Below the pieces are notes generated by a model that saw nothing but the letters and a program-made list of their open reading frames with translations, was not told the origin of the DNA and did not search any database. Shown here in pieces: positions 5,128-37,613 of a stretch of DNA of 64,000 nt; within the stretch, counting starts at the first letter, position 1, and the number at the start of each line of letters is the position of its first letter. The stretch is from a virus (Duplodnaviria; Heunggongvirae; Uroviricota; Caudoviricetes). Made by a program: the position numbers and the translations under genes. Location: the IMG/VR virus record IMGVR_UViG_3300005253_000053; one strand, 5' to 3'.

Positions 5128-6633
5128 TTAGGGGCCGAATCCTGCGGAGACGGCGACATTCACAACCTCGCCCGTGGCGAAGAAGTTCGTGTCGACCATG
5201 AACTTCGCGTACTCGGTCCAGAGACCGCGCTGCGTGACGCCGAACGGCTGGACGAGCGGCGGCGAGGTGTAGAACGGGATGTACGGCGCGTACACCAACC
5301 CCGCCTTCAGGAAGCCCGGTCCCCGGTAGCCGACCACGAACCGGTTGGGGTTCGTGCCGCCGCCGACATCCGGCATACGGGGGTCGACGACCACGTCCCA
5401 CTGGCCGTCGATCTTTCCGGCCAGGGTCGGGCCTGCGGTGGCCTTCGTGCCGAAGCTCGGGTCCGGCACGAAGCGCGGCGCACCGATGTCGCGCAGGATC
5501 GAGAGCACCTCGGTCCCGCAGACAACGAAGTTCGGCTGGATCTGCTGCGTCGCCTGATAGACGAGATCCGAAGCCTGGATGATGGCACCGATCAGGCCTT
5601 CCTTGTGCCACTTGAAGGCGAACCCGCCGCCCGTGTTCCGGTTGAAGACCACGTTTCCTGCTGTGGCCTCCTGAACCATGAAGTCGATCAGTTCACGGAC
5701 GATTTCCGCCGTGACCGTCTCCGACATGGACACAACCAGTTCCGCGTCGGCGTCGCCACCGTACTGGCTGCGGAAGTCCGCAACCGTCTTGTGGCTGTAC
5801 TCGATCTGGAGGTTGCGCGGCTCGGCCCGAATCAACTGCTGCTGCAATTCGAGCTTGACCTTCGGGATGAGGGGGTTTCCCTCGGAGTCGTACTTGTACG
5901 TCGTGAGGATCGGAAGTGTGACCGCTCCCGTGAAGGTCATGCCCACGACTGCGCCCGTGAGGTAGTCGATGGTTCCGCCGCCGGTCGTGTCACCGACGAG
6001 CGCGCCGTTGCCATCGTCGCGAACGACGAGAGGCGTGGCGGCCGAGTCGAACATCTCGAACGAACCCGGGCGGATCGGGAAGTACGTGCCGACAAGGCTC
6101 GCGGCCTTGGCGAACGGTCCCGGGGTCGTCCCCGTGAAGCGCGCTTCACGGAAGATGACTTCGTCCGAGTAGTGGAAATTGGTGCCCTGGAACCCGGTCG
6201 TCGCGTCGAAGATCCGGCTTCCCCCGACCAGTTCACCCTTGTCGTTCTCGCGGATGATGCTGTAGTAGAAGACGTTCGAGTGCGGACCGGCCATCGGCTG
6301 AACCGAGGCCAGGACGCTGATGATGTCCTCCTGGAACGCTGCGCGAACCATCGGGAACATCCACTGCTCGAAGCTGCCGAGGTTCACCGCCTTCATCGCC
6401 TCATCCATCTGGCTGAGGTAATTGCCGGTGTTCTCCAGAAGCTGAGCGACGACCGCCTGCTTGTAGGGGTCCTCCATCTCGGCGATGAAGTTCGTGGGAC
6501 GCTTGTGGAAGCGCTTGTCCTTGTAGCGGGACCACTTGCGGATCAAGCCCTGGCGAGCGTCGATGAAATTCGTCACCAGGGTCGACTCTTGCGCCTCGTT
6601 GAGAGGCTGAGCGACTGCTGCGGCCGTACTCAT
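5128..6633 (-). CDS. major capsid protein, T4 gp23-like
   Basis: Blocks collinear with T4 gp23 as I recall it: MVRAAF..SVLASVQPM (T4 MVRRAI..DICGVQPM), GGDADAELVVSMSETVTAEI (GMDADAELSGILATEIMLEI), PNFVVCGTEVLSIL (GNFIIASRNVVNVL), FVVGYRGPG..GLVYAPYI (FTVGYKGPN..GIYYAPYV). Start set at MSTAAAV with GGGAGA 9 nt upstream. N-terminal IAE/LLE sites suggest propeptide cleavage. Confidence 0.85.
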   Translation of the reverse strand: MSTAAAVAQPLNEAQESTLVTNFIDARQGLIRKWSRYKDKRFHKRPTNFIAEMEDPYKQAVVAQLLENTGNYLSQMDEAMKAVNLGSFEQWMFPMVRAAFQEDIISVLASVQPMAGPHSNVFYYSIIRENDKGELVGGSRIFDATTGFQGTNFHYSDEVIFREARFTGTTPGPFAKAASLVGTYFPIRPGSFEMFDSAATPLVVRDDGNGALVGDTTGGGTIDYLTGAVVGMTFTGAVTLPILTTYKYDSEGNPLIPKVKLELQQQLIRAEPRNLQIEYSHKTVADFRSQYGGDADAELVVSMSETVTAEIVRELIDFMVQEATAGNVVFNRNTGGGFAFKWHKEGLIGAIIQASDLVYQATQQIQPNFVVCGTEVLSILRDIGAPRFVPDPSFGTKATAGPTLAGKIDGQWDVVVDPRMPDVGGGTNPNRFVVGYRGPGFLKAGLVYAPYIPFYTSPPLVQPFGVTQRGLWTEYAKFMVDTNFFATGEVVNVAVSAGFGP

Positions 6634-6785
6634 GGTAGTAATCTCCCGTTTCAGTGTAGCACCGCCCACAATGGGGATGCTTTGAAGCGGGAAGGCTGGT
6701 GGCTGGAGTGGCCTCGCGGAGGCTCGTACCACTGGATAGGCATCAGTGGGTCCGAGTACCGCCTTCCTTGACGATTCTTATTTTG

Positions 6786-6803
6786 CCCGACTCCCCTCAG
6801 GGA
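6786..6803. other. perfect GC hairpin between protease/scaffold and capsid genes
   Basis: GACTCCC-CTCA-GGGAGTC, 7-bp stem. Not followed by a U-tract on either strand, so probably an RNA processing or stability element rather than a terminator. Confidence 0.3.
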
Positions 6804-6810
6804 GTCAAAT

Positions 6811-9417
6811 CTACGACCCGCGCTTCTTGCGGGCGATCACGTTCTCCATCAGGAGCGATCCGTCGCCTTTCAGCGGCGCGGTCTCCGGATTCCCCATCTG
6901 GGGCGGCTTCTTCTTGGCTCTCCGAACGCCCACGGGCAGTACAGTCTCTTCAAGCTGCCGCTTCCGTGGCGCTGGCGCGGGCTTCCCGCGCTGCGCTGCC
7001 GGGGCTGCCTCGGTCAGATTCTCTTTGCTTCCGCCGGAGGCGCGATTCAAGTTCTCCATCATGGTCTGGAAACCACTCTTGGACTTCTTGCCTTCGACCG
7101 GGTTCATCGGGACCATGACATAGGCCTGGGCGTCCGGCGCGTCGGCGACCTCGGGCGGGACCTCGAACTTCTGCCCTTCACCCTCGCCCGCGCCCTCGCC
7201 CTCGATGTCATCCACGTCCATGCCGAGATCCAGTTCGTCGTCGCCTTCCTCGTCACCTTCCTCGTCACCTTCCTCGTCGCCGAAGAAATCGCCGCCCATG
7301 TCGTCGCCGCCCATGTCGTCGTCGTCGCCATTGACGTAGTCGTCCACGCCGTCTCTCTCGGCGATCTCGGCCATGCCGATGGACTGTTCGTAGTCGACGC
7401 CGTGGGCCTTCGCGAAGGAGGCCGCAATGTCGTTCTCGGCGATGCCCATGGACTGGAGAGCCTTGTACAGGGTGTCGCCGTCGAAGATCTGGCCGTACGC
7501 ATCGCCATTGACGAGCACGCGGTAGAAGCCGTCCTCTTCGAGGCCGATCTCCACGTTGACCTCTTCCTCGTTGTGCATGCGCACGCGGGTGCCCAGCATC
7601 GCCTCGGCCAGCCCGACCATGCCCGAAACATCCTGGGAGGTCTTGAGCGCCGAACGGCACTGCGCGGTGTCCAGCGCCGGGTTGGCTTCGATGATGCGCT
7701 CCATCGAGGTCTTGAACTGTTCCTCGCGGTAGCGCTTCCCGGTGTCGACAGCCAGCGTCTTCGCAGCTTTCAACTGCTTCTTGATGTGCTGGTTTTCGCG
7801 ACGGAGGCCACGATTCTCGTTCACAAGGCCGACGTTCAACCCGGCCAGAGACTCCATGTCCATATCACCCATCTCCTCGTAGTTGTCGTCGTCGTAGCCC
7901 ATCTCGTCGTGAGCGTAATCCATCTCATCCTGAGGCTGACCCATGCCGCCCGGGTGCACTCCACCCATTTCGTCGCGCGGCATCGGACGACCTCGACGAC
8001 GACGGCGACGCATGGGGTGTCCGCCCATGCCCATTTCCTGGACGATTTCCTCGTCGCCATCAGACTGGTCGCTGGCAACGATGCCCTGAAGATCCTTGAC
8101 CTTCTTGCCCCTGCGGCTGGTCTGCTTGTTCTTGGTGTCGTAGGCGACGTGCATGCCCTTCGCGCCGGGGATCTTCTTCGAGCCTTCCTCGTCGAGGTTG
8201 GCTGCACCGCCCTGAGACTCGGTGCCGATGATCTTGCCGTGCTTCTGACCGGTCTCGCCTGCGGGGACCTTGACGCCGGGCTTCACGCCGGGACCCGGAG
8301 GCGTGCCGTCGTTGGACGTGCCTTCGGGATCTTCGATGTGGCCCTGACCTTCTGCGCCGCCGGGGCCGAGGTTCTGGCCCTTCTTGCCGACAGTCGGGAG
8401 CACGTCGAGTTCGTCGATGGACGGAGACGTGGCAACGCTGAGACCCTTCGCGCCCGACAACGGGGTCGGGTCGGCCTCGTTCATGGCCGCCGTGATGACC
8501 TCAAGGATCTCGTCGCGATGGTGCTGGATCTTGCCCTTCATCGAGGCGGCAAGGTCCAGAGCAGCGCTGTCGGTGAGCGCGGAACGGGCCGAGAACAGAC
8601 CTTCATTCAGCGCGTCGAGTTCCTTCAGGTACTCGGTGAGGTTGCCCTTCGGCTGAATGCTGAGACTGCCCAGCTTCGGCTCCAACCGGCTCAGCCTCGT
8701 GCGGATTTCCGTAAGGTCCATCACCGTGTCTCCTCTGTTCGCAGGAAGTGAGTAGTGAGTCCCGGCAGCCTGCTGCTCTTTCAGGAGCTTGCGCCGAGCT
8801 TCCTGCGCCTCGTTGATGGCTTCCCGAACCGCGCGCGGGAATGCCCCGGGCGTGCTCGGACGAGCCACAATATCCCAAACGATGGTTTCGCGGTCAACAT
8901 CGTCCTGGACAATGTCGGCATCCGCCGGGAAGGCCGGATACTTGGCCCCCTCATTCCGGATGACCGAGCCCTGGGCGCGGCTGGATGCGCCCGTCTCGAC
9001 GTTGGCTTCCCACAGAGCCTCAACGATCTTGCCGTCGGGTGTGGGCAGGGCCTCGAACTCGCCGATGATGGCTGTGTCGGGATCTTCGCCCTGGGCGATG
9101 AGTTCTTCACGCATCCCCGGGAACTTGTCGATGTAGCCAACATCGGTGAGCACGACGGCAAATTTGCGCAGGTCCGGTAGACCATCAGAGGGGTGCTCGA
9201 TGTGCCCACATACGGCACGGCGGCCAACGCGGCCCATGAACTCCCCCGACGTCTCAAACAGGTTCTCGAAGAAGCTCTTCGGGTAAACCCGCTTGTTACC
9301 GTTTAGGGTGTCGTACCGCTGGATGATTCCACGGGCTCTGGTAGCCCCGTTTTCCTGCAAGTTCGACTCGACCAGCTTGAATCGCGTCGCTACGGAGTCC
9401 TCTAGCAATGTTCTCAT
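6811..9417 (-). CDS. prohead protease-like N-terminal domain fused to long acidic scaffold-like region
   Basis: 868 aa. The N-terminal ~150 aa (GIIQRYDTLNGNKRVYPKSFFEN...AVCGHIEHP) is compatible with a prohead protease. The rest is coiled-coil and low complexity (RRRRRRGRP, DEEGDEEGDEEGDDE) with many L/I-x-E sites. It sits immediately upstream of the capsid gene, as T4 gp21/gp22 do. Confidence 0.4.
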   Translation of the reverse strand: MRTLLEDSVATRFKLVESNLQENGATRARGIIQRYDTLNGNKRVYPKSFFENLFETSGEFMGRVGRRAVCGHIEHPSDGLPDLRKFAVVLTDVGYIDKFPGMREELIAQGEDPDTAIIGEFEALPTPDGKIVEALWEANVETGASSRAQGSVIRNEGAKYPAFPADADIVQDDVDRETIVWDIVARPSTPGAFPRAVREAINEAQEARRKLLKEQQAAGTHYSLPANRGDTVMDLTEIRTRLSRLEPKLGSLSIQPKGNLTEYLKELDALNEGLFSARSALTDSAALDLAASMKGKIQHHRDEILEVITAAMNEADPTPLSGAKGLSVATSPSIDELDVLPTVGKKGQNLGPGGAEGQGHIEDPEGTSNDGTPPGPGVKPGVKVPAGETGQKHGKIIGTESQGGAANLDEEGSKKIPGAKGMHVAYDTKNKQTSRRGKKVKDLQGIVASDQSDGDEEIVQEMGMGGHPMRRRRRRGRPMPRDEMGGVHPGGMGQPQDEMDYAHDEMGYDDDNYEEMGDMDMESLAGLNVGLVNENRGLRRENQHIKKQLKAAKTLAVDTGKRYREEQFKTSMERIIEANPALDTAQCRSALKTSQDVSGMVGLAEAMLGTRVRMHNEEEVNVEIGLEEDGFYRVLVNGDAYGQIFDGDTLYKALQSMGIAENDIAASFAKAHGVDYEQSIGMAEIAERDGVDDYVNGDDDDMGGDDMGGDFFGDEEGDEEGDEEGDDELDLGMDVDDIEGEGAGEGEGQKFEVPPEVADAPDAQAYVMVPMNPVEGKKSKSGFQTMMENLNRASGGSKENLTEAAPAAQRGKPAPAPRKRQLEETVLPVGVRRAKKKPPQMGNPETAPLKGDGSLLMENVIARKKRGS

Positions 9418-9759: not shown

Positions 9760-10218
9760 TCAGATGTGGCCCTGAGTGACATCCACCAACATCGTGCCTG
9801 TTCCGCTCGTGATCCGAAGGCGCAGGGCGTCCGGCGAGCGCGCGTTCGTCAAAGTCGGCCAGTCGACGATCCGGCGCGACCGGCCCAGGGGTACGACTAC
9901 GTCGCTCGCAATCGAATCCCAGGTCGTGGTCGCGTCGACCTCGGTCTGCTCGACGTTTCCGCCCGTGATGCCGATCTGACGGTCTCGGTTGTCAAAGTCG
10001 AACGCGGCCAGGATCTCGACCGTCAGGCTATCCTCCAGATCCTGGTTCTCGTACTCGAAAATCATGGCCGTGTTCAGGAAAGGCCCACGAAAATAGCGGC
10101 CGTCGGGCTCAGTCGTCGGCGGGAACACCTGGGTGCGGATCGTCTCTTCGCTGTGCAGGAAGAAACGCTGGTTGAAAATGTTGGCAGCCTGAGTCTCGAC
10201 ACCAGGAGCGTTACTCAC
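9760..10218 (-). CDS. hypothetical virion-module protein
   Basis: 152 aa, protein-like composition, overlaps the glycosyltransferase stop by 8 nt. Confidence 0.45.
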   Translation of the reverse strand: MSNAPGVETQAANIFNQRFFLHSEETIRTQVFPPTTEPDGRYFRGPFLNTAMIFEYENQDLEDSLTVEILAAFDFDNRDRQIGITGGNVEQTEVDATTTWDSIASDVVVPLGRSRRIVDWPTLTNARSPDALRLRITSGTGTMLVDVTQGHI

Positions 10219-11398
10219 AGTAGATCTCCTCTCGGCTCAGACGAATGAGCACCGAACTGCCCAGGTCGCCATCTCCGACTCTGTCCCCTGAATCATATGC
10301 CAAGGGCGTCACAACGTCGGATTCTAGCTCTGCTTGCTGTAAAAGCCAAGACGACCGTGGCTCCAAGCTGAGCACTGGAACGGCCCGGCCCTGGATCAGA
10401 TCCTCGGCTACGCCTGCCGTAGGGACGAGAGGCTCTTCCAGGGAAATGGTCCTCGCACCGCGCAGCATCATCGAAACCTGCCGCCCAACGTCCACACCCT
10501 CTTTGAACGGGATCAGTTCGACGCGCTGGTGGGAATACTCTTTGCACTCGAACAAGTCCGCGTCCGTCGCCGTAACCTGGGCAGCGATAACTATAGGCTT
10601 CGATGTAACTTGCGAACACCAGCCGCGCACGGCGGCGAGCGCGTCCGGGCTGTCGTACGGGATGACTACGGCAAGCGCCGGGTCGCCCAGACGCTGAATC
10701 GATTCACGCATCAGCCCCTTGCAAGTGTCTTCCAGCAGGGCTGTGTTGCGGCGCGAAGTCTGTAGTTCGTGCTGCCGGTACTCGTAGAGCTTCTGCGGAA
10801 TGTGAACAAACTGGCAGGTCTCGGCCAGCTTGATCACCAGATCAAAATCTTCGGCCGTGGGCAGTGTCGGATTGACACCTGCGGTTCTGTCGTAGGCCGA
10901 CTTGCGCATCATGCGAAACTGAAAAGCGCACAGACCGGACTGCTGCATACGCCGTAGCGAGAACATACGACGGCAGCGCTTCTCGAAGTGGGGATCGTGC
11001 TTGGAGGGTGCGCCGTCCGATTCGACCCTAAGGTAGTCCGAATAGACCACACCGACTTGTTTGGGGCAGCCTTCCAGAGTGTTAAGAGTCATCGAGAGCG
11101 CTTCGGGAACGATCCGGTCGTCGGCGTCGACCTGACAAAAAAACTCCGAGGCCACTTCGCGGTAGGCTTGCGCGACGCGCCCCGGAGTTCCAAGATGTCC
11201 GTTGGTCAGTAGCTGGAAGCGGCTGTCCCTCTCGGCAAAGGACCGTACGATCTCTCTCGTGCGATCCTGCGAGCCGTCGTCGTAGACCTTGCAGACGAAG
11301 TCTGAGAAGCTCTGCTGCTCAACCGAGCGTAAGCAGTCTTCCAGATATTCCTCGGCGTTGTACGCCGGGACAACGACCGTAACGCGGGAACCGCTCAC
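10211..11398 (-). CDS. family-2 (GT-A) glycosyltransferase
   Basis: VVVPAYNAEEYLEDCLRSVEQQSFSDFVCKVYDDGSQDRT plus a DxD motif (QVDADD), typical GT2 N-terminus. Embedded among structural genes. Confidence 0.8.
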   Translation of the reverse strand: MSGSRVTVVVPAYNAEEYLEDCLRSVEQQSFSDFVCKVYDDGSQDRTREIVRSFAERDSRFQLLTNGHLGTPGRVAQAYREVASEFFCQVDADDRIVPEALSMTLNTLEGCPKQVGVVYSDYLRVESDGAPSKHDPHFEKRCRRMFSLRRMQQSGLCAFQFRMMRKSAYDRTAGVNPTLPTAEDFDLVIKLAETCQFVHIPQKLYEYRQHELQTSRRNTALLEDTCKGLMRESIQRLGDPALAVVIPYDSPDALAAVRGWCSQVTSKPIVIAAQVTATDADLFECKEYSHQRVELIPFKEGVDVGRQVSMMLRGARTISLEEPLVPTAGVAEDLIQGRAVPVLSLEPRSSWLLQQAELESDVVTPLAYDSGDRVGDGDLGSSVLIRLSREEIYCE

Positions 11399-17134: not shown

Positions 17135-17827
17135 TCAGTCCAGGCTCCACCCGTGTTTGATAACGTCCATTGTGTAGGCTGCCCCATGGGTGAACAGGCA
17201 GTCCAGGACTGACATGCGTTCTTGGAATCCAGGATATATCTGGGGGTACGAATGGCAACGAAATCTTTGAAAAACTGCTTGCAAGTTGTGCTGGCGGGCG
17301 TGGTCCGGGAGAAGCCGCTGCTTGAATGCCGAACTGCTCAGGATCACCCGGCCACCCGCCGCGCGGGCGACGTTGAGCGAGAGCGTGAGGAAATCGTCCG
17401 TATCGAGGCTCAGCACCTGGGACGAGTGCGCGATCCGGGTCTTGATGCCCAACCAGTCCCGGATGAGCAGGATCAGCGTGTAGTTGAGATCGAAGACCGT
17501 GGCCGAGGTCTTCAGAGCTTCCCGGATCTCCGGCGCGTACTCTTTCCAGTACGCGGTCTCGCCGTATGTCCCGGCCAGAAGCATCCAGGCCATCTCGATC
17601 TCGTGGAACGGCCGGAGCCGCGCCTCGGCGACCCGCTGCTGGGCGACCTGATTGACCGGGATGACCAGCCACGTCCAGTCGGACTCGGTGCGGATACGGT
17701 TCCGGTTCTGGAAGTGGCGCTTGCGAAAGTAGGTTGTATCGGTGAGGACGAACAGATCCGCGTGCAACAATTGATTCCAGAATCCTAACCATGGGATGAA
17801 CTCTGGTTGGTGGACGCCGACGATCAC
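17135..17827 (-). CDS. WbqC-like family protein (O-antigen/sugar-modification associated)
   Basis: N-terminus (M/V)IVGVHQPEFIPWLGFWNQL matches the WbqC-like family start (MKVAI.QP.F.PY.GYF). GTG start with GGAAGGG upstream. Confidence 0.65.
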   Translation of the reverse strand: MIVGVHQPEFIPWLGFWNQLLHADLFVLTDTTYFRKRHFQNRNRIRTESDWTWLVIPVNQVAQQRVAEARLRPFHEIEMAWMLLAGTYGETAYWKEYAPEIREALKTSATVFDLNYTLILLIRDWLGIKTRIAHSSQVLSLDTDDFLTLSLNVARAAGGRVILSSSAFKQRLLPDHARQHNLQAVFQRFRCHSYPQIYPGFQERMSVLDCLFTHGAAYTMDVIKHGWSLD

Positions 17828-18503: not shown

Positions 18504-19058
18504 TCAATCTGACTCGGTATGTCGAGTTTCCGCTAAGGTCCGGATGTCGTCCCTCTCACCGGGGGATACAAAATCCAGTCCCAACTCCTCGAACAGGCTC
18601 TTCTCACAGGGAGTTACGAGCTTCACATCTTCACGCTTCAAGCCCGACGCACCGAACTTCAGACCCTTGCTGCCCGCGAAGACCTCTATCATTTTGACAA
18701 ACGGGACCGGCCCGTTGGCGTGGAGCATGGCCGCGCCCAGTTGCTCGGGCGGGATCACCAACCAGGAGACGTTCCCGTCCTCGAATTCGACGTAGTCGTA
18801 GATCTTGAACTTCTTGATCTTGCAGCCAGTGAACTCAACCTCGGCCCGGGACTTGATCTGAGAACGCACGTCGCCGGAGTCGGCCGTCTCGCTGAGAACG
18901 CCTACCACGCATAGCTGCTTCACCTGGGCCTTCTCCGGCAGGCGGTACAGTTCCCCGCACGGGAACGTCTCGATCACGCCGGTCCCCGCCATGCACGACA
19001 TGATCCGTGCCGCGAGCGACTCAGCGCGCTCGCGGCTCCAAGTTGTCTTAGCCGCCAT
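18504..19058 (-). CDS. hypothetical protein
   Basis: Start set at MAAKTTWSR (AGGAGGA 8 nt upstream), 184 aa. The N-terminal extension in the track ORF overlaps the class A promoter. Confidence 0.5.
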   Translation of the reverse strand: MAAKTTWSRERAESLAARIMSCMAGTGVIETFPCGELYRLPEKAQVKQLCVVGVLSETADSGDVRSQIKSRAEVEFTGCKIKKFKIYDYVEFEDGNVSWLVIPPEQLGAAMLHANGPVPFVKMIEVFAGSKGLKFGASGLKREDVKLVTPCEKSLFEELGLDFVSPGERDDIRTLAETRHTESD

Positions 19059-19082
19059 CGGTGTATCCTCCTGTCCCACCCT

Positions 19083-19112
19083 GTATATCGGATTGGGCGG
19101 GCAATTTCCCCA
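19083..19112 (-). promoter_or_regulatory. class A promoter motif (variant with 25-nt SD leader)
   Basis: plus: ctgtatatcggattgggcgggcaatttcc. Confidence 0.5.
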
Positions 19113-19173
19113 ACTTTTCTGCGACCTTGCCGGTTTGACATTCGCCAAGGCGAGGAGGTATAACGACTTGACC

Positions 19174-19563
19174 ATGGCTTACGGCATCGGACTACGTATC
19201 GAAGGGCACGACTGCGGGAACGCCGCGATCCTCCGCGACGAGGAGGCCGTCCAAGAACTGCTGGTGACCGCGATCCAGGTCGCAGACATGACCCTGCTGG
19301 CCGGGCCGTTCTGCACCGAAGAACTGACTCGGGACATCGGCAAGGGTCCCGGCCTCACAGCCTGCGCGATCCTGTACGAGTCCCACGTTGTCATCCACAC
19401 CTATCCGGAACAGCGGTGGTTCCTGTTCGAGATGACCACCTGCAAAGAGTTCGACTCGGTCCGTGTCGTCAATCTCCTGAGAGCCTGGGCCGACTGCAAG
19501 ACGGTCACCGACTGCACCGTCGTGGGCCACATGTTCCCCGAACCCGTTGAAGCGAATGGCTGA
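19174..19563 (+). CDS. speH: S-adenosylmethionine decarboxylase proenzyme (pyruvoyl-dependent, SpeH/SpeD class 1)
   Basis: GPGLTACAILYESHVVIHTYPE matches the AdoMetDC self-processing Glu-Ser site and the following HT(W/Y)PE block. Start set at MAYGIGL. Confidence 0.65.
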   Translation: MAYGIGLRIEGHDCGNAAILRDEEAVQELLVTAIQVADMTLLAGPFCTEELTRDIGKGPGLTACAILYESHVVIHTYPEQRWFLFEMTTCKEFDSVRVVNLLRAWADCKTVTDCTVVGHMFPEPVEANG

Positions 19564-19830: not shown

Positions 19831-21885
19831 CTACTTCGGTTTTTTGACCCTCGGGATATTCAGGTTCCCCGCGTGGTACTCCTCAGCCGCGATCAACATC
19901 GGTGCCCACTGGAGGTAGCCCGCCCGCGTGCGCGGGTCCTGAAAGAACTGCTTGTAGTCGCCGGGCTTGTACGCATCGACGTTGAACAGCCGGGACTCCG
20001 GAACGGTGACCGTGGTCCTGAGCGGGCTGTCGTCATCCCATCTGTACCGCCGAAACGACCGCCGCTCACGGAACCAGCGAAAGATGGCCTTCTTCGCCCA
20101 GGGCTGCCACTTGTCAATCTTGGCGATGTAGCCGGGACCTGGATTGCCGTACGGCTTGAAACGCTCATGCCGGTAGTCGCTCCGATTCCGCCAGTCACCG
20201 TCCAGGCGGTTGTTCTCTTTCTCCGCCTCCTTTTCCTGCCAGAGGCCGTCCTGGCCGATGACCACGCTGCCCGTCTTCAGCGATTCGTTGCACTTCCGGC
20301 GGTACGCCTCGAAGTCCGGACGCTCGCCCTCGTACAGCGTGTTGGAATCGTCGTAGACAAGTTCGAGGGCCTGCCCGAAACCTTCGGCACTCCAGAGCTT
20401 GACCGGAAGGTGCGGATGTAGAACATCGGAGCGGTCGAACAGACCTTGGACGATCAGCGCGATCCGGTTGTAGTGCTTGACCCGGTCCTCGACTTCCTTG
20501 AGCGCCTCGTCGAAGTACACGGAGGTGGAGTTGAACGGCTCCCACTCGTTTTCCCTGAAGCTGCTATGGAAATGCGTCTCGAAGTACCCGTCGTACGGAG
20601 CCTTGTCGAGAATATCCCTCCGCTCTCTTATCTGAAATTTGTTGAGATTGTGGGAGCTTTTCCGCAACCGCTTCGGCATGTTCTCTTTGAGCCACTTCTT
20701 CCGCCCCACCAGATTCCGTTTATGCGCAGCCTCAGCATCTGCGTGTTCCTTGCAGAGCGCCTTGAACTCACGGACCGGGATCATCTCCTCCACCTTGTCG
20801 AAGCTCATCTTCGCCATCATCGGTTCGGTCGGGTCGAAGATCTTCCCACTGGGAAACAGCATCAGCCCGAACTCCAGGTCGCACCCCATCCAGTAGACGC
20901 GCTCCCCATTTCGGATGTACAAGTAGGTTTTCTTGTCGGCGTTTTCCAACCCCATGTGGATAAATATCTTCTTCGGATCGCCGCCCCAGTCGCGCGCTTT
21001 CTTCTCCCGCCGAACTTTGAACGACACGATGCAGCGAGGGAATGGGAAGACCCGGTTCAAGTTCTCCGGCTCGCACAGCCATTTGTCGAACTTGTCGAGG
21101 CTATCAAAATCCATCCCACCAAGCTGGTAGTTGAGCAAGCACTCCTCGTCCATGTATAGGCGGCGCTGCATCAGATACAGTTTCTCGGAGATGTCAGCAG
21201 GCTCGCCCTTCTGGATCTGTTTCACGTCTTCAGTGAGACCTGCGTAGATGCTGACGTTGAAGATCCGATCCTGAATGTCATCGACGCAGGATTTCATTGC
21301 GCCTGCCATGGCCTCAAGCGGAACGGCCTCGGCCGACAACCACATCGCTAGGTTTTCATTGGCGCTCCTAATCTCGCTAAACAGTTTCGGAAGGTCCTCA
21401 TCCTTTGCCTTGACCAGCGCATTTTCGTACTTCTTGACGTTGTCGGTCCCGGAGAGCGTAACCAGGGCAGTGCTGGAAGACTCGCTGCGCTCTTCAATAC
21501 CGATCCGGCTACTCACACCCAGCCGGGCCGTGAGGGCTTTCACTTCGGCCATCTTCTCTTCGACCAGAGCTTTGTACTTGTGGACATTCCTACCGATTAC
21601 ATCCTTGGGCTTGGGCTCGTGACGCAGTTCATCGAAGAAGTCGTCGAAGTGAACCCGGCAGTGGCTCTGACCCTGGTGACCTCTCGGAGAATGAAGCTCG
21701 ACGTAGTTGGACCCGATCTCTGTGATGCAACCGAGCCACTCGTACTCGTAATCTTCGTATTTGTCAGTCTCTTCGTTGTACCTACTCTTGGTGTGCTTCA
21801 CCCAGTACCACTGACCGACCTCGGCACCACCTTCGGTGTCGAGGCGGTCAGTGACGGGATTGCGCTTGGCGACTTGCTTGGCCAC
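19831..21885 (-). CDS. large hypothetical protein (684 aa), operon partner of the GHKL ATPase
   Basis: K/R/W-rich, no recognisable motif. Its start lies 2 nt after the stop of 21887..23356. Confidence 0.6.
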   Translation of the reverse strand: MAKQVAKRNPVTDRLDTEGGAEVGQWYWVKHTKSRYNEETDKYEDYEYEWLGCITEIGSNYVELHSPRGHQGQSHCRVHFDDFFDELRHEPKPKDVIGRNVHKYKALVEEKMAEVKALTARLGVSSRIGIEERSESSSTALVTLSGTDNVKKYENALVKAKDEDLPKLFSEIRSANENLAMWLSAEAVPLEAMAGAMKSCVDDIQDRIFNVSIYAGLTEDVKQIQKGEPADISEKLYLMQRRLYMDEECLLNYQLGGMDFDSLDKFDKWLCEPENLNRVFPFPRCIVSFKVRREKKARDWGGDPKKIFIHMGLENADKKTYLYIRNGERVYWMGCDLEFGLMLFPSGKIFDPTEPMMAKMSFDKVEEMIPVREFKALCKEHADAEAAHKRNLVGRKKWLKENMPKRLRKSSHNLNKFQIRERRDILDKAPYDGYFETHFHSSFRENEWEPFNSTSVYFDEALKEVEDRVKHYNRIALIVQGLFDRSDVLHPHLPVKLWSAEGFGQALELVYDDSNTLYEGERPDFEAYRRKCNESLKTGSVVIGQDGLWQEKEAEKENNRLDGDWRNRSDYRHERFKPYGNPGPGYIAKIDKWQPWAKKAIFRWFRERRSFRRYRWDDDSPLRTTVTVPESRLFNVDAYKPGDYKQFFQDPRTRAGYLQWAPMLIAAEEYHAGNLNIPRVKKPK

Positions 21886-21886
21886 G

Positions 21887-23356
21887 CTACGCTTCCTTGA
21901 ACTCGACCGGGAAGATCTCCGGCCGCTCCAGTGCGATCATCACCAGCTTCGCGCCCAGGCGCGTGCAGGCGTTGTAGTACCCCTCCGACAGGTGGTCGCT
22001 CTCGAACTCGTGAGCCAACTCGTGGATCACCAAGTCGGTCACCTTCTCCAGGTTGTCCGGGAACGCCTGGAACCACGCCCGTCCCAGGCGTCGCAAGTTG
22101 AACCGCAGATGCTTGCTGCCGTAGCACGCACCGTAGTTCTGCGGGTCGCGTACAATGTCGACCTCCGGCTCGAACCCCAGGAGCGCTTCGCCAACACGCT
22201 TCGTGTAGGCAATGATGGCCGTCATCTCGGACGTGAGATTCTTGACCCTGATGTCATCTCCATCAGCAGAGAAGATGGCCTTGCTGGTCGGGAACAAGAC
22301 CGAGGACGGCTCCATCGTCTCGAAGCGCTTGGCGTTGCCCCACTCTCCTGAACTGAGCGAGCCGCCCGCCAGGACCGAGAAGCCTTCCGACACGCCACGG
22401 CTGTTGGCCTCGGGGTCCTGTACAGACCAACTGGCGATGTCGTCCCCGTGCCGCTTGTGGATGACCTTGTCGAACGCCTCGGCCTCGATGTTCTCGTCGG
22501 ACGTGGCTGCCCGCACCCAGGCCGCGCCCGCATCGTCGTCTTCCAGTTCCTCGTGGAAGTTATTGACGATCTCGACGCGAAGTGCCTGAAGGTAGGACGG
22601 ACTCACGCTGTCACGGTCGCGCGGCAGCGGGACCTTCTGCTGGACATCGACATGCCACTTGTCGTCGGGCAGGTCACAGACGGGGATGCCCAGTTCGTAC
22701 AGACGCGGCGTGTCGCCCTCTTCAACCTCGTAGAGGACCACGCGCGTCTTGCGCCGGGTGCGACGCATATTGCCTTCATCGTCAGCAAGCTCCGTGGGGA
22801 GCGTGGCCGAGAACTCGCCCACCCTCTCAAGTATGGAGAGAGTCTCGCCGTTGATGATCGTGTGTACGCCTTCCGGCTGGATCACCGTGAACAAGACTTC
22901 CAGGGCTTCGGCGACCTCGTCCTTGTTCATGTAAACGTCGCCCTGGAAGATCGTGCCTCGCTCCAGACCCACGGTGCGCTTAACGCGACGCTGGCCGTCG
23001 GCCTTGAATGAAACGGTGCCCGTCACGGTCTCGATGACGGCACTCTTACAAAGCGAAAGGACTTCCTTTTCGCCGATGCAGAACCGCCCGCGCTTGCGCG
23101 GATCGCCGCGCCTTGATGTCCTCCCGTACAGAGTGTAAGAAGCACTCAAGTCCTCAAACCCGCGCGGGTCGTTGTCCGTGACCCGAATGTGCGCGAGGCC
23201 ACGAGACACGTGCTCGAACTCGACAAGTACATCGGTCGCGTCCGTGTCCCACGCATTGCCCAAGAGTTCCAGCGGTAAGAACGCTGACCCCCTTCGCCGG
23301 GCAACCTGGGCCAGCCCGGCCTTGTCCACCTCAAACCACTCGTTCTTCTTCGCCAT
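21887..23356 (-). CDS. GHKL-family ATPase with C-terminal HELAHE metal-binding motif
   Basis: Bergerat-fold motifs: N-box LELLGNAWDTDA, G1 VTDNDPRGF, G2 RGRFCIGEKE. C-terminal VIHELAHEFESDH (HExxH), reminiscent of zincin or the MutL DQHAxxE endonuclease motif. Confidence 0.6.
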   Translation of the reverse strand: MAKKNEWFEVDKAGLAQVARRRGSAFLPLELLGNAWDTDATDVLVEFEHVSRGLAHIRVTDNDPRGFEDLSASYTLYGRTSRRGDPRKRGRFCIGEKEVLSLCKSAVIETVTGTVSFKADGQRRVKRTVGLERGTIFQGDVYMNKDEVAEALEVLFTVIQPEGVHTIINGETLSILERVGEFSATLPTELADDEGNMRRTRRKTRVVLYEVEEGDTPRLYELGIPVCDLPDDKWHVDVQQKVPLPRDRDSVSPSYLQALRVEIVNNFHEELEDDDAGAAWVRAATSDENIEAEAFDKVIHKRHGDDIASWSVQDPEANSRGVSEGFSVLAGGSLSSGEWGNAKRFETMEPSSVLFPTSKAIFSADGDDIRVKNLTSEMTAIIAYTKRVGEALLGFEPEVDIVRDPQNYGACYGSKHLRFNLRRLGRAWFQAFPDNLEKVTDLVIHELAHEFESDHLSEGYYNACTRLGAKLVMIALERPEIFPVEFKEA

Positions 23357-23532
23357 GCGCTTCTCTCCTGCAAGAAGACCATGATGAATCTTGGGAGGCA
23401 GGGTTCCCCGTCGGTTCCCTTCTCAACCTGTCCGAAAGTAGAGTACCACAGTTCTACAGATTTGTCAATGATTTTCCATAACTTTTTATATGAGTCTCCA
23501 CGGGGCGCACTACGCCACCCACATGGCTCTAC

Positions 23533-23566
23533 CATGTATATCGGATTGGACCGGCTATTTCGCCAA
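23533..23566 (-). promoter_or_regulatory. class A promoter motif (about 175-nt leader to GHKL gene)
   Basis: plus: catgtatatcggattggaccggctatttcgcc. Confidence 0.5.
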
Positions 23567-23567
23567 G

Positions 23568-36325: not shown

Positions 36326-36640
36326 CTAACACTCCTCCCGGTCGCCAGGAATGTCCAGAATTTCCAGGTCCGGGTCAGGCGTGGCGCACGCTTCGTCAAA
36401 ATCCTTTGCCGCCAGACTCAGCAGCCAGTCCAGAAATGACTCCGCGATGGGGTTTCCCCGAACCGCGTCGAGAATGTCGTACATGACCTCAGTGTGTTCC
36501 GGACCCGTGCGGAACGAGACGACCTTCATGTCGATGCCGAGCTTCCGGCACAGCGCAGCGCCCATGGCAACCATACGTTTGGCTTCGTCACTAGCCACTG
36601 TGTCCTGCCTCCCGTACGTACTTGGCGACGTCGTGCTCAA
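36326..36640 (-). CDS. hypothetical small protein
   Basis: 104 aa. Confidence 0.45.
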   Translation of the reverse strand: MSTTSPSTYGRQDTVASDEAKRMVAMGAALCRKLGIDMKVVSFRTGPEHTEVMYDILDAVRGNPIAESFLDWLLSLAAKDFDEACATPDPDLEILDIPGDREEC

Positions 36641-37613
36641 CCATCATCGCCACCAGATCCTCGAACGAAACGTCCGGTCGCCACTGCAAGACCATACGGG
36701 CCTTGGTCGGATTTGCGTGCAGGACGTGAACTTCCGCCGGGCGGAAGAACTCGGGGTCGATGACGATGTACTTCTCGTAGTCCAGATTGACCACTCCGAA
36801 GGCGGCCTTCACGAAATCTCGAACTGAGTAGGTCTTGCCGGAGCCGACCACGTAGTCGTCAGGCTTCTCCTGCTGGAGCATCAGCCACATGGCCTTCACG
36901 TAGTCTCCGGCAAAGCCCCAGTCGCGCTTGGCGTCGAGATTCCCCAAGTGGAGTTTCTCCGCCTTACCTAGACTAATGGCCGCCGCGCCCCTCGTGATCT
37001 TTCGAGTCACGAACTCCACGCCCCGACGAGGGCTCTCATGGTTGAACAGGATGCCCGAACACGCGAACAGTTTGTAGGCTTGTCGGTACATGCGGGTGAA
37101 CTGGAAGCCTGCCACCTTGCTGATCGCGTAGGGTGATTGGGGATCGAGCGGTGTCTCCTCACTTTGTGGGGCGTCGGTCGAAGCGTTCCCGAACATCTCA
37201 CTCGTGCCTGCAAAGTAGAAACGACAGTCCGGTGCGAGATGCCGCAAAGCCTCCAACAGATGCAATGTGCCGACGGCGTTGATCTGGAACGTATCGAACG
37301 GAGAGTCGAACGACTCCTTGACGAAGCTCTGGGCTCCGAGATGGTAGCACTCGTCCGGCATCACGTTCCGCACCACGTCGAATACGCTGGCGTAGACCTG
37401 CAAATCTCCGCTGTGCAACACCAGATCGTTCGCAATGTGGTGGATGCGACCTGCCCGATCTGCCGGGTCTTCGACAGCCGCTCTCCTGACGAGCCCGTGA
37501 ACTTCGTAGCCCTTCTCCAGCAGAAGCTCAGACAGATACGATCCATCCTGCCCCGTGATTCCAGTAATGAATGCTCTCATGGTCGGCCCCAGCCCCTTCG
37601 GCCATCCGGTCAC
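36591..37613 (-). CDS. gmd: GDP-mannose 4,6-dehydratase
   Basis: MRAFITGITGQDGSYLSELLLEKGYEVHGLVRR..., PYAISK, NHESPRRG, DYVVGSG..SVRDFV, FRPAEV are collinear with E. coli Gmd. The start may be at MRAF (37577). Confidence 0.85.
   Translation of the reverse strand: MTGWPKGLGPTMRAFITGITGQDGSYLSELLLEKGYEVHGLVRRAAVEDPADRAGRIHHIANDLVLHSGDLQVYASVFDVVRNVMPDECYHLGAQSFVKESFDSPFDTFQINAVGTLHLLEALRHLAPDCRFYFAGTSEMFGNASTDAPQSEETPLDPQSPYAISKVAGFQFTRMYRQAYKLFACSGILFNHESPRRGVEFVTRKITRGAAAISLGKAEKLHLGNLDAKRDWGFAGDYVKAMWLMLQQEKPDDYVVGSGKTYSVRDFVKAAFGVVNLDYEKYIVIDPEFFRPAEVHVLHANPTKARMVLQWRPDVSFEDLVAMMVEHDVAKYVREAGHSG

What the first reader, a model, noticed from the sequence alone, without database searches (positions are those of the whole stretch)
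19831..23566. Operon of a GHKL-ATPase with C-terminal HELAHE motif plus a 684-aa partner of unknown fold
21887..23356 has clear Bergerat-fold motifs (LELLGNAWDTDA, DNDPRG, GRFCIG) of the MutL/MORC/Hsp90 ATPase type. It ends with VIHELAHEFESDH, which resembles both zincin HExxH and the MutL endonuclease DQHAxxE block. It is tightly coupled to a 684-aa basic protein with no recognisable motif. The pair is driven by a class A promoter through a roughly 175-nt AT-rich leader.

GHKL-plus-partner pairs recur in defence and anti-defence systems and in DNA topology control. The function here is unknown.
Basis: partly seen in the sequence, partly recalled or inferred. Interest (0 to 1): 0.6.

Follow-up and report, generated by a model that had tools for sequence, protein, structure and literature searches.

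The report
Phage ATPase fused to Wss1-like protease
A large phage encodes an uncharacterised protein that joins a MutL/topoisomerase-type ATPase clamp to a zinc protease resembling the DNA–protein-crosslink protease Wss1. The 684-aa gene next to it is an unrelated orphan gene, not a conserved partner.

Summary
The window comes from a T4-capsid-type large phage. Two translationally coupled genes lie at 21887-23356(-) and 19831-21885(-), behind a recurring phage promoter with a 174-nt leader.

This GHKL-S5-WLM architecture was not found in the literature I could search. The family is widespread: 267 IMG/VR contigs and 123 GTDB species genomes.

The "pair" reading fails. The partner lies within about 10 kb of the GHKL gene in roughly 5 of about 47 independent lineages, each in a different arrangement. 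Complete phage genomes carry either gene alone. Neither gene has a conserved neighbour.

The 684-aa protein belongs to a large orphan family (2,250 clusters at 50% identity) with no match in Pfam, PHROGs, NCBIfam, PADLOC or the PDB.

Best reading: a stand-alone, ATP-gated Wss1-type metalloprotease used in phage-host conflict. This resembles ArdC, but with a GHKL clamp as the targeting and gating module. The substrate is inferred, not shown.

The parts
23537..23566 (-). Phage-specific sigma70-like promoter ('class A'): -35 TTGGCG (23561-23566), 18-nt spacer containing AAATAGCC...CCAATCC, -10 GATATA (23537-23542)
   Evidence: Sequence read. The motif recurs 14 times against 2.7 expected, with 0 of 100 shuffles reaching 14. 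Aligned copies share the whole -35/spacer/-10 element.
23357..23530 (-). About 174-nt 5' leader, unusual for this promoter class, which is mostly leaderless. It contains a second sigma70-like site, TTGACA-N17-TACTCT, at 23440-23468.
   Evidence: No Rfam match. Weak predicted structure, z = -1.6. The surrounding 211-nt intergenic region (23357-23567) is 50% GC against 60% for the window.
21887..23356 (-). Gene for the 489-aa GHKL-S5-WLM fusion protein (ATP-gated zinc metalloprotease candidate)
22997..23356 (-). GHKL (Bergerat) ATP-binding domain, residues about 1-120, including a conserved N-terminal segment (WFEVDKxGLA). Motif I is E30-N34-D37 (23246-23269). Motif II is D61...G66 (23159-23176). 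Motif III, the ATP lid, is G90...G95-E-K97 (23066-23089).
   Evidence: Alignment A1. Conservation in 137 homologues. Alignments to MutL and sacsin motifs. Pfam PF13589 in 45 of 61 homologues.
22607..22996 (-). S5-fold transducer domain, residues about 121-250, with invariant Q240-K241 (22634-22639) as candidate for the phosphate-sensing QxK/Lys loop
22232..22606 (-). Middle alpha/beta domain, residues about 251-375, of unknown function, with a conserved DPSDPEA block (D314, E316)
   Evidence: Secondary structure. Conservation. Weak hit to phrog_6077 of unknown function.
21890..22231 (-). C-terminal Wss1/WLM-like zincin metalloprotease domain, residues about 376-489. The catalytic motif H445-E446-x-x-H449-x5-H455 lies at 21992-22024.
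19831..21885 (-). 684-aa orphan protein, co-transcribed here but not a conserved partner. It has an N-terminal SH3-like beta-barrel (about 26-90), long helices, an alpha/beta core and a basic C-terminal domain (about 571-684).

Best explanation
The 489-aa protein is a single-gene module, not half of a two-gene system. It has four parts: an N-terminal GHKL ATPase, its S5 transducer domain (the ATP-driven dimerising 'clamp' module of MutL, MORC and type II topoisomerases), a family-specific middle domain, and a C-terminal Wss1/WLM-type zinc metalloprotease.

Shown:
- The fold of the GHKL-transducer module and of the zincin domain.
- Near-complete conservation of the ATP-binding and hydrolysis residues and of the HExxHx5H zinc and catalytic residues. 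Both activities are therefore under selection.
- The absence of any conserved neighbouring gene.
- A distribution centred on large and huge phages, with copies in bacterial chromosomes.

Inferred:
- ATP binding dimerises the GHKL domains through the conserved N-terminal segment.
- The transducer relays this to the protease, so that proteolysis is gated or targeted by the ATPase cycle.
- The most likely clients are proteins sitting on DNA. This follows the DNA-dependent proteases Wss1 and SPRTN, the plasmid anti-restriction factor ArdC, and the DNA-clamping GHKL-S5 enzymes.
- In a phage this would serve host takeover or counter-defence, by removing host restriction, defence or nucleoid proteins, or trapped protein-DNA adducts, from DNA.

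The adjacent 684-aa gene is an independent, widespread orphan phage gene. It merely shares the transcript in this lineage.
For: Architecture:
- The AlphaFold2 model has pLDDT 92.8.
- Pfam HATPase_c_3 hits 45 of 61 homologues. Pfam WLM hits 22 of 61 C-terminal domains.

Catalytic competence:
- E30 and N34 are kept in 136/137. D37, D61, G66, G90, G95, K97, Q240 and H445 are kept in 137/137.
- K241 is K or R in all 137. E446 and H449 are kept in 135, and H455 in 134.

Solo gene:
- Across 81 viral and 80 cellular loci there is no conserved neighbour. The best is a serine recombinase in about 23 of roughly 160 loci (20 viral, 3 cellular).
- There is no conserved small upstream ORF.

Conflict flavour:
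- Contexts are variable accessory regions of 100-500-kb phage contigs.
- In the Planctomicrobium chromosome the gene sits beside DUF1998/MZB, helicase and reverse-transcriptase genes.
- A divergent paralogue with the same architecture lies beside RadC in another phage.

Precedent:
- ArdC combines a DNA-binding domain with a Spartan-like protease, overcomes restriction, and occurs in huge phages (PMC7213743; bioRxiv 10.1101/2025.02.27.640493).
Against: - No substrate evidence of any kind exists.
- The protein is acidic in every domain (family median pI 5.9, net charge -8). That gives no support for constitutive DNA binding.
- The window protein itself is below Pfam gathering thresholds for both HATPase_c_3 (15.2 against 25 bits) and WLM (14.9 against 26 bits).
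- Coupling between ATPase and protease is inferred from the fusion only.
- Chromosomal copies near defence-type genes could equally mean a host-defence role.
- The structural equivalence of K241 to the transducer lysine could not be checked, because no coordinates were available.
Confidence: 0.55

Rival explanations
1. One reading: the GHKL protein and the 684-aa protein form a dedicated two-component system of the defence or anti-defence GHKL-plus-partner type, working as a complex.
For: - In the window the genes are separated by 1 nt and share one promoter.
- The GHKL-zincin gene is the single most frequent neighbour of the partner family. It occurs in 5 loci in the BLAST clustering, while no other family exceeds 3.
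- One further locus (L211/L212) has a divergent GHKL-zincin paralogue about 5 kb from a partner homologue.
- The partner has a basic C-terminal domain that the acidic GHKL protein lacks.
Against: - Only about 5 of about 47 independent partner loci, and 3 of 81 GHKL loci, have the other gene within 8-10 kb. The five arrangements all differ: adjacent, 3.7 kb, 2.9 kb, divergent, and opposite strand at 5 kb.
- That frequency is about what random placement in 100-450-kb genomes gives.
- On contig 3300027985_000843 the two genes are about 233 kb apart.
- Complete phage genomes carry one gene without the other.
- Family sizes and conservation differ strongly. The partner is 45-52% identical across more than 1,200 proteins.
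Confidence: 0.1
2. Hsp90-like chaperone-protease: the GHKL-S5 module clamps protein clients rather than DNA, and the zincin processes or degrades them. Clients could be phage proteins during assembly or host proteins during takeover.
For: - The Pfam SACS domain hits 16 of 61 homologues, and NCBIfam gives a sacsin N-terminal hit for the window protein.
- The acidic charge resembles Hsp90.
- Jumbo phages are known to encode peptidase-fused chaperone systems (PMC7824862).
Against: - The gene is not in the structural or morphogenesis module here. The capsid and prohead protease genes lie at 5128-9417, about 12 kb away, with metabolic genes in between.
- Its position is variable elsewhere.
- The best structural match of the protease is the DNA-dependent Wss1, not a processing protease.
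- No Hsp90 middle or C-terminal dimerisation domains are present.
Confidence: 0.2
3. Defence, abortive-infection or superinfection-exclusion effector: the protein protects its carrier (a prophage or bacterium, or a phage against competitors). It would cleave an essential host or invader protein when triggered, as the zincin Lit does.
For: - The family is present in 123 GTDB species genomes, including complete chromosomes.
- The Planctomicrobium copy lies next to DUF1998/MZB, helicase and reverse-transcriptase genes, a typical defence-island composition.
- A DNA methyltransferase family recurs in 9 loci.
- Prokaryotic GHKL-S5 ATPases are typically components of restriction systems (PMC2292703).
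Against: - There is no hit to any of 5,027 PADLOC models.
- Most copies are in lytic-looking huge-phage contigs with no defence neighbours.
- Only one chromosomal context of three examined looked defence-like.
- The chromosomal copies may be prophage-borne; this was not resolved.
Confidence: 0.13
4. MutL-like nicking endonuclease: the C-terminal HELAHE...DH block is a metal-binding nuclease site like DQHA(x)2E(x)4E of MutL/PMS2.
For: - There is a superficial motif resemblance.
Against: - The C-terminal domain folds as a zincin (helix, three strands, active-site helix, helix).
- It matches Wss1, minigluzincins, M48 and BepA and Pfam WLM, YgjP and SprT.
- The invariant pattern is HExxHx5H.
Confidence: 0.02

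Closest known systems
Wss1 / WLM-domain and SPRTN (SprT) DNA-protein-crosslink metalloproteases
   Different: No SUMO, ubiquitin, Cdc48-binding or Zn-binding DNA sub-domains are present. It is fused instead to a GHKL-S5 ATPase. It is of phage or bacterial, not eukaryotic, origin. The window sequence is below the Pfam WLM threshold. DNA dependence is untested.
ArdC (plasmid R388 anti-restriction protein; also in huge phages)
   Same: It is carried by a mobile element. A Spartan-like metalloprotease domain sits C-terminal to a targeting domain. ArdC has a documented role in overcoming host restriction (PMC7213743) and is found in huge phages.
   Different: ArdC's N-terminal module is a small ssDNA-binding domain with no ATPase. 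Its third zinc ligand is Glu rather than His. No sequence relationship was detected here.
MORC / paraMORC / MutL N-terminal GHKL-S5 ATPase modules
   Same: GHKL domain plus S5 transducer, with all nucleotide-binding motifs and a conserved basic residue after the transducer sheet. Prokaryotic members are mobile and conflict-associated (PMC2292703).
   Different: Known prokaryotic members are fused to or linked with nucleases, helicases and methylases. No peptidase fusion is reported in that survey. No conserved helicase, nuclease or methylase neighbour occurs here. MORC-specific signature motifs were not tested.
T4 rIIA/rIIB (phage GHKL protein plus partner)
   Same: rIIA has an N-terminal GHKL domain with a variable C-terminal region and works with a second protein (PMC7824862). 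This phage has a T4-type capsid.
   Different: hhalign of the family against T4 rIIA aligns only the generic GHKL core (probability 1.7%). The 684-aa protein shows no similarity to rIIB. rIIA has no zincin domain.
Hsp90 / sacsin-type GHKL chaperones
   Different: No Hsp90 middle or C-terminal domains, no DnaJ or HEPN as in sacsin, and the protease fusion is absent from those families.

Membership tests
GHKL (Bergerat-fold) ATPase superfamily | Motif I ExxxNxxD (catalytic Glu, Mg-binding Asn) | tested here: met
   E30-L-L-G-N34-A-W-D37 at 23246-23269. E30 and N34 are kept in 136/137 and D37 in 137/137. The motif aligns to MutL and sacsin motif I.
GHKL (Bergerat-fold) ATPase superfamily | Motif II (DxGxG-type adenine contact) and motif III (Gly-rich ATP lid) | tested here: met
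   D61-N-D-P-R-G66 and G90-R-F-C-I-G95-E-K97. All are kept in 137/137. Motif III aligns to sacsin KvGrFGiG.
GHKL (Bergerat-fold) ATPase superfamily | Bergerat fold by structure comparison | tested here: met
   [not shown]
GHKL (Bergerat-fold) ATPase superfamily | Pfam HATPase_c_3/HATPase_c above the curated threshold | tested here: inconclusive
   The window protein scores 15.2 bits against a cut-off of 25. However, 45 of 61 homologues hit PF13589 at E <= 0.01, best 7.6e-8.
GHKL-S5 clamp ATPases (MutL / MORC / type II topoisomerase ATPase modules) | S5-fold transducer domain following the GHKL domain, supplying a conserved basic residue to the gamma-phosphate | tested here: inconclusive
   The two-domain alignment covers 220-260 residues to ParE 43K, MutL-NTD and MORC2. 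Q240-K241 is invariant or K/R. The spatial equivalence of K241 could not be checked without coordinates.
WLM / Wss1-like zincin (Pfam PF08325, minigluzincin type) | HExxH active-site helix with a third His six residues after the second (HExxHx5H) | tested here: met
   H445-E-L-A-H449-E-F-E-S-D-H455. These are the only invariant residues in 61 independent C-terminal domains. They are kept in 134-137 of 137 homologues.
WLM / Wss1-like zincin (Pfam PF08325, minigluzincin type) | Compact zincin fold matching Wss1 | tested here: met
   [not shown]
WLM / Wss1-like zincin (Pfam PF08325, minigluzincin type) | Pfam WLM above the gathering threshold | tested here: not met
   The window domain scores 14.9 bits against 26. 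22 of 61 members hit at E <= 1, best 1.5e-5. YgjP-like (5 members) and SprT-like (3 members) also hit. I therefore call it Wss1/WLM-like, not a Pfam WLM member.
WLM / Wss1-like zincin (Pfam PF08325, minigluzincin type) | DNA-dependent proteolysis of DNA-bound proteins | not testable with these tools
   This needs biochemistry. The charge analysis gives no support for DNA binding.
MutL C-terminal endonuclease | DQHA(x)2E(x)4E metal site in the MutL C-terminal dimerisation/nuclease fold | tested here: not met
   [not shown]
T4 rIIA/rIIB pair | Homology of both proteins to rIIA and rIIB | tested here: not met
   hhalign of A1 against rIIA gives probability 1.7%, covering the GHKL core only. A3 against rIIB gives probability 0.2%.
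Known anti-phage defence systems (PADLOC-DB v2) | Match to any component model | tested here: not met
   No hit for either protein at E <= 1.
ArdC anti-restriction family | N-terminal ssDNA-binding domain plus C-terminal gluzincin (HExxH...E) | tested here: not met
   The N-terminus is GHKL-S5, not the ArdC ssDNA-binding domain. The third zinc ligand is His, not Glu. The similarity is functional and architectural only.
   A full-length partner is nearby in 3 of 81 GHKL loci and a GHKL-zincin in about 5 of about 47 partner lineages. All arrangements differ. The two genes are 233 kb apart on one contig. Each occurs alone in complete genomes.

The most novel reading that the evidence does not exclude
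The GHKL-S5-WLM protein is a new class of phage counter-defence enzyme. It would be an ATP-driven clamp that loads onto DNA (or onto a DNA-bound host complex) and uses its tethered Wss1-type protease to cut restriction, defence or nucleoid proteins off the DNA. That would make it a prokaryotic-virus analogue of eukaryotic DNA-protein-crosslink proteolysis, with the ATPase replacing ubiquitin, SUMO or Cdc48 as the targeting and gating device.

A bolder add-on: the 684-aa orphan protein, with its basic C-terminal domain, is a facultative nucleic-acid adaptor for it in some lineages.
Probability: 0.2. Interest if true: 0.8.

Novelty: new variant of a known kind. Interest (0 to 1): 0.55.

Why it matters
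GHKL-S5 ATPases (MutL, MORC, topoisomerase II, Hsp90) and Wss1/SPRTN proteases are each intensively studied. A natural fusion of the two was not found in the literature I could search.

If the ATPase cycle gates or targets the protease, this family would be a compact, single-chain, nucleotide-controlled protease. It would also be a simple model for how GHKL clamps hand clients to effectors.

Its abundance in large and huge phages (267 IMG/VR contigs), and its scattering through bacterial chromosomes, point to a role in phage-host conflict. That could add a proteolytic mechanism to the anti-restriction repertoire beyond ArdC.

Separately, the 684-aa neighbour belongs to one of the larger well-conserved phage protein families that still has no function and no structural relative (2,250 clusters at 50% identity). 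It is a good target for structure determination.

The finding also shows that tight adjacency in one genome is a poor guide to functional partnership in huge phages.

Tried and rejected
**Known family matches**
- PADLOC, NCBIfam and PHROGs scans of both proteins gave nothing usable.
- rIIA/rIIB identity was rejected by hhalign.
- The MutL endonuclease reading of HELAHE was rejected on fold and motif.

**Neighbour searches**
- A hidden conserved partner was sought by all-against-all clustering of neighbours in 81 viral, 80 cellular and 46 partner loci. None was found.
- A conserved small ORF immediately upstream, suggested by 136-aa ORFs in L208 and L210, was rejected. The largest cluster holds 3 of 114 loci.

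**The 684-aa partner**
- The profile search of 1.84 billion representatives found only full-length relatives.
- The ten longest relatives have no Pfam domain in their extensions.
- A permissive Pfam scan of 53 members shows no recurring hit.
- An 'RNA-repair neighbourhood' idea arose from RNA ligase, Metallophos and peptidyl-tRNA hydrolase genes immediately downstream in three loci. It was not borne out by further contexts.
- Virion-proteomics data for the vB_EliS-L02 homologue could not be read, because the supplements are not held.

**The leader**
- No Rfam hit and weak predicted structure.

**Literature**
- Searches for a GHKL-zincin, WLM or SprT fusion found none.

Full report
**1. What is in the sequence**

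The window is part of a large tailed phage. It encodes a T4-type Gp23 major capsid protein (5128-6732, E 6.5e-43) and an S77-type prohead protease domain. Most genes are short and on the minus strand. The 489-aa product is identical to a 'marine sediment metagenome LCGC14' protein recorded on a contig of up to 225 kb.

The two ORFs of the finding exist exactly as described. The 489-aa ORF ends in TAG. One base later the 684-aa ORF starts with GTG, preceded by AGGA. Downstream of the 684-aa gene, plus-strand ORFs converge on it, including an S-adenosylmethionine decarboxylase. The unit is therefore a two-gene operon.

Surrounding genes are auxiliary-metabolism genes: WbqC-like, Pol-beta-type nucleotidyltransferase, PRAI-like and NUDIX.

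**2. The promoter and leader**

The 211-nt gap upstream contains the sequence cTTGGCG-AAATAGCC-ggtCCAATCC-GATATA. The core pattern CCAATCCGATRWA, allowing up to 2 mismatches, occurs 14 times in the window against 2.7 expected. None of 100 shuffles reaches 14, and 12 hits are on the coding strand.

Aligned copies share a whole sigma70-like -35/spacer/-10 element. At 8 of 13 sites an ATG lies exactly 6 nt after the -10 hexamer, so most transcripts of this class are probably leaderless.

The 211-nt intergenic region containing that leader is 50% GC against 60% for the window. The leader has no Rfam match and weak predicted structure, z = -1.6. It contains a second consensus-like promoter, TTGACA-N17-TACTCT.

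**3. The 489-aa protein is a GHKL-S5 ATPase fused to a Wss1-like zincin**

- **Single-sequence scans.** These are only suggestive: HATPase_c_3 at E 0.022, YgjP-like at 0.18, WLM at 0.19, and sacsin N-terminal at 0.002.
- **Family-level scans.** These are clear. 45 of 61 homologues hit PF13589 (best 7.6e-8), 22 hit PF02518 and 16 hit the sacsin domain.
- **Structure.** An AlphaFold2 model built on 61 sequences has pLDDT 92.8 and pTM 0.81.
- **Independent domain test.** In a separate alignment of 61 C-terminal domains taken from viral loci, the only invariant residues are H-E-x-x-H-x5-H. 22 of these domains hit Pfam WLM (best 1.5e-5), 5 hit YgjP-like and 3 hit SprT-like. The other recurrent peptidase hits are also zincin families.

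Across 137 distinct homologues from viral and cellular loci, conservation is as follows:

| Site | Residues | Kept |
|---|---|---|
| ATPase | D37, D61, G66, G90, G95, K97, Q240 | 137/137 |
| ATPase | E30, N34 | 136/137 |
| ATPase | K241 | 130 K, 7 R |
| Protease | H445 | 137/137 |
| Protease | E446, H449 | 135/137 |
| Protease | H455 | 134/137 |

Both active sites are thus maintained by selection.

A family-specific middle domain (residues about 251-375, with a conserved DPSDPEA block) remains unassigned.

**4. The 'pair' is local, not conserved**

I fetched 80 IMG/VR loci carrying the GHKL-WLM gene with up to 10 kb on each side.

- A full-length homologue of the 684-aa protein is nearby in only three loci. 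In L001 it lies 3.7 kb upstream. In L059 and L060 it is divergently oriented. None reproduces the window's arrangement.
- Clustering all neighbouring ORFs shows no conserved neighbour. The most frequent is a serine recombinase, in 20 of 81 loci.
- The same holds when 80 loci from GTDB genomes are added.
- There is no conserved small upstream ORF.

Conversely, in the partner loci the GHKL gene is the commonest neighbour, but it is still rare.

I then found a divergent 564-aa paralogue with the same architecture. It has GHKL by hhalign at probability 85%, and a C-terminal LLLHEFGH...H motif, and it lies 5 kb from a partner homologue. BLAST could have missed such paralogues, so I repeated the test with HMMs.

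- GHKL-zincin genes lie within about 8 kb of the partner in about 5 of about 47 independent lineages, counting the window and L001, in five different arrangements.
- That is roughly what random placement in 100-450-kb genomes would give.
- On one 372-kb contig the two genes are about 233 kb apart.
- Complete genomes of Mesorhizobium phage Cp1R7A-A1 and Erythrobacter phage vB_EliS-L02 encode the partner (44% and 39% identity) but no detectable GHKL-WLM.
- The 485-kb uncultured phage record LR745208.1 encodes the GHKL-WLM but not the partner.

The known phage GHKL-plus-partner pair, T4 rIIA/rIIB, is not what this is.

**5. The 684-aa protein**

It belongs to a large and well conserved family.

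- More than 1,200 proteins are 45-52% identical over the full length.
- There are 2,250 clusters at 50% identity, 975 of them with E <= 1e-30.
- There are dense invariant blocks.
- No library recognises it: Pfam, PHROGs, NCBIfam, PADLOC and PDB sequences all give nothing, both for the protein and for 53 relatives.
- BFVD holds only one relative, also uncharacterised.
- It is neutral rather than basic (pI 7.0), but has a conserved basic C-terminal domain with pI of about 9.8.
- Its neighbours are variable and lean towards nucleic-acid metabolism: DNA ligase, RusA, RNA ligase, Metallophos, peptidyl-tRNA hydrolase and tRNA arrays.

My low-confidence guess is a nucleic-acid-associated early protein. 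Its function is open.

**6. How the GHKL-WLM protein most likely works**

Shown:
- The GHKL-transducer and zincin folds.
- Intact catalytic residues for both activities.
- Solo-gene status.
- A distribution in large phages and some bacterial chromosomes.

Inferred, from established knowledge of MutL, GyrB, MORC and Hsp90:
- ATP binding closes an N-terminal dimer. The conserved N-terminal segment WFEVDKxGLA may act as the strap.
- The transducer, possibly through K241, senses the gamma-phosphate.
- This cycle gates or positions the C-terminal Wss1-type protease.

By analogy with Wss1, SPRTN and ArdC (PMC7213743), the favoured clients are proteins on DNA. The favoured role is host takeover or counter-defence.

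Against the DNA part, every domain of the protein is acidic, and Hsp90-type structures score almost as well as DNA-clamp types. A chaperone-protease acting on free proteins therefore remains a serious rival.

One chromosomal copy, in Planctomicrobium, sits among DUF1998/MZB, helicase and reverse-transcriptase genes. This keeps a defence role on the table.

**7. Comparison with what is known, and novelty**

The survey that defined prokaryotic MORC and paraMORC GHKL-S5 proteins reports links to nucleases, helicases and methylases, but no peptidase (PMC2292703).

The comparative study of jumbo phages lists stand-alone SprT-like and ArdC-like peptidases, and GHKL proteins of the topoisomerase and rIIA types, but no fusion (PMC7824862).

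Full-text searches for GHKL together with zincin, WLM, SprT, Wss1 or metallopeptidase found no description of this architecture.

I therefore rate it a new variant of known kinds: a new domain architecture built from two well-known modules. It forms a sizeable uncharacterised family, with 267 IMG/VR contigs and 123 GTDB species genomes, and it is essentially absent from cultured phages.

**8. Verdict**

GHKL and zincin are right, while the MutL endonuclease reading and the functional pair are not.

Interest is 0.55. This is a credible, testable, previously undescribed ATP-gated Wss1-like protease of phages, beside a large orphan protein family, but there is no functional evidence yet.

Noticed in passing
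window, minus strand: 17940, 19084, 23537, 24888, 26931, 28979, 31552, 32391, 33461, 39679, 46615, 51421; plus strand: 58002: A phage-specific sigma70-like promoter class, cTTGgcg-AAATAGCC-nnCCAATCC-GATAAT, gives 14 core hits against 2.7 expected. At 8 of 13 sites an ATG follows the -10 hexamer by exactly 6 nt, implying leaderless mRNAs for many genes of this phage. The GHKL operon, with its 174-nt leader, is an exception.
   Followed up: partly
[not shown]
   Followed up: yes
L211:14122-15816 (-) (also L212, truncated): A divergent 564-aa paralogue has the same GHKL + C-terminal zincin architecture (LLLHEFGHDNASGTGHDH). It lies next to a RadC gene and about 5 kb from a homologue of the 684-aa protein. 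This suggests a broader superfamily of GHKL-zincin fusions in phages.
   Followed up: partly
L011:8070-9386 (+); L006:7241-8680 (+) and relatives (clusters 14 and 10): Two other families of about 440-480-aa proteins with GHKL-like motifs (ELVQNAVDA......EFVSNAIDR) lie within 0.2-1 kb of the GHKL-WLM gene in 5-6 loci each. Several GHKL paralogues may therefore cluster in some huge phages.
   Followed up: no
L142:12261-21377 (Planctomicrobium sp. SH664 chromosome): The chromosomal GHKL-WLM copy is flanked by a DUF1998/MrfA-Zn-binding protein (609 aa), a large helicase (1139 aa) and a 1276-aa reverse-transcriptase protein. This neighbourhood looks like a defence island.
   Followed up: partly
window 18504-19175 (-) and 18991-19563 (+): Two ORFs with genuine Pfam hits overlap on opposite strands if their longest starts are used: a Pol-beta-type nucleotidyltransferase on the minus strand and an S-adenosylmethionine decarboxylase on the plus strand. 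The promoter at 19084 and an SD-ATG at about 19062 indicate that the minus-strand gene starts later than its longest ORF. A phage-encoded AdoMet decarboxylase is itself unusual.
   Followed up: partly
window 23146-23535 (-): A 129-aa ORF starts 1 nt after the -10 hexamer, runs through the leader and overlaps the first 210 nt of the GHKL gene in another frame. It is probably not expressed as such, because its ATG is too close to the -10. It could be a small upstream ORF; a 4-codon mini-ORF also starts 12 nt after the -10.
   Followed up: no
window 6811-9417 (-): An 868-aa protein has only an N-terminal S77 prohead-protease match (residues 29-196, E 1.5e-4). That is far longer than T4 gp21, so the C-terminal about 670 residues are unassigned.
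   Followed up: no
window 10211-11398, 17135-17827, 36591-37613 (all -): The phage carries sugar and surface-modification genes: a family-2 glycosyltransferase, a WbqC-like protein and a GDP-mannose 4,6-dehydratase (E 1e-120).
   Followed up: no
L001:6692-8557 (+): In a related phage, a 621-aa gene with a faint LAGLIDADG hit lies between the partner homologue and the GHKL-WLM gene. It may be a homing-endonuclease or intein-type insertion that separates the two genes.
   Followed up: no
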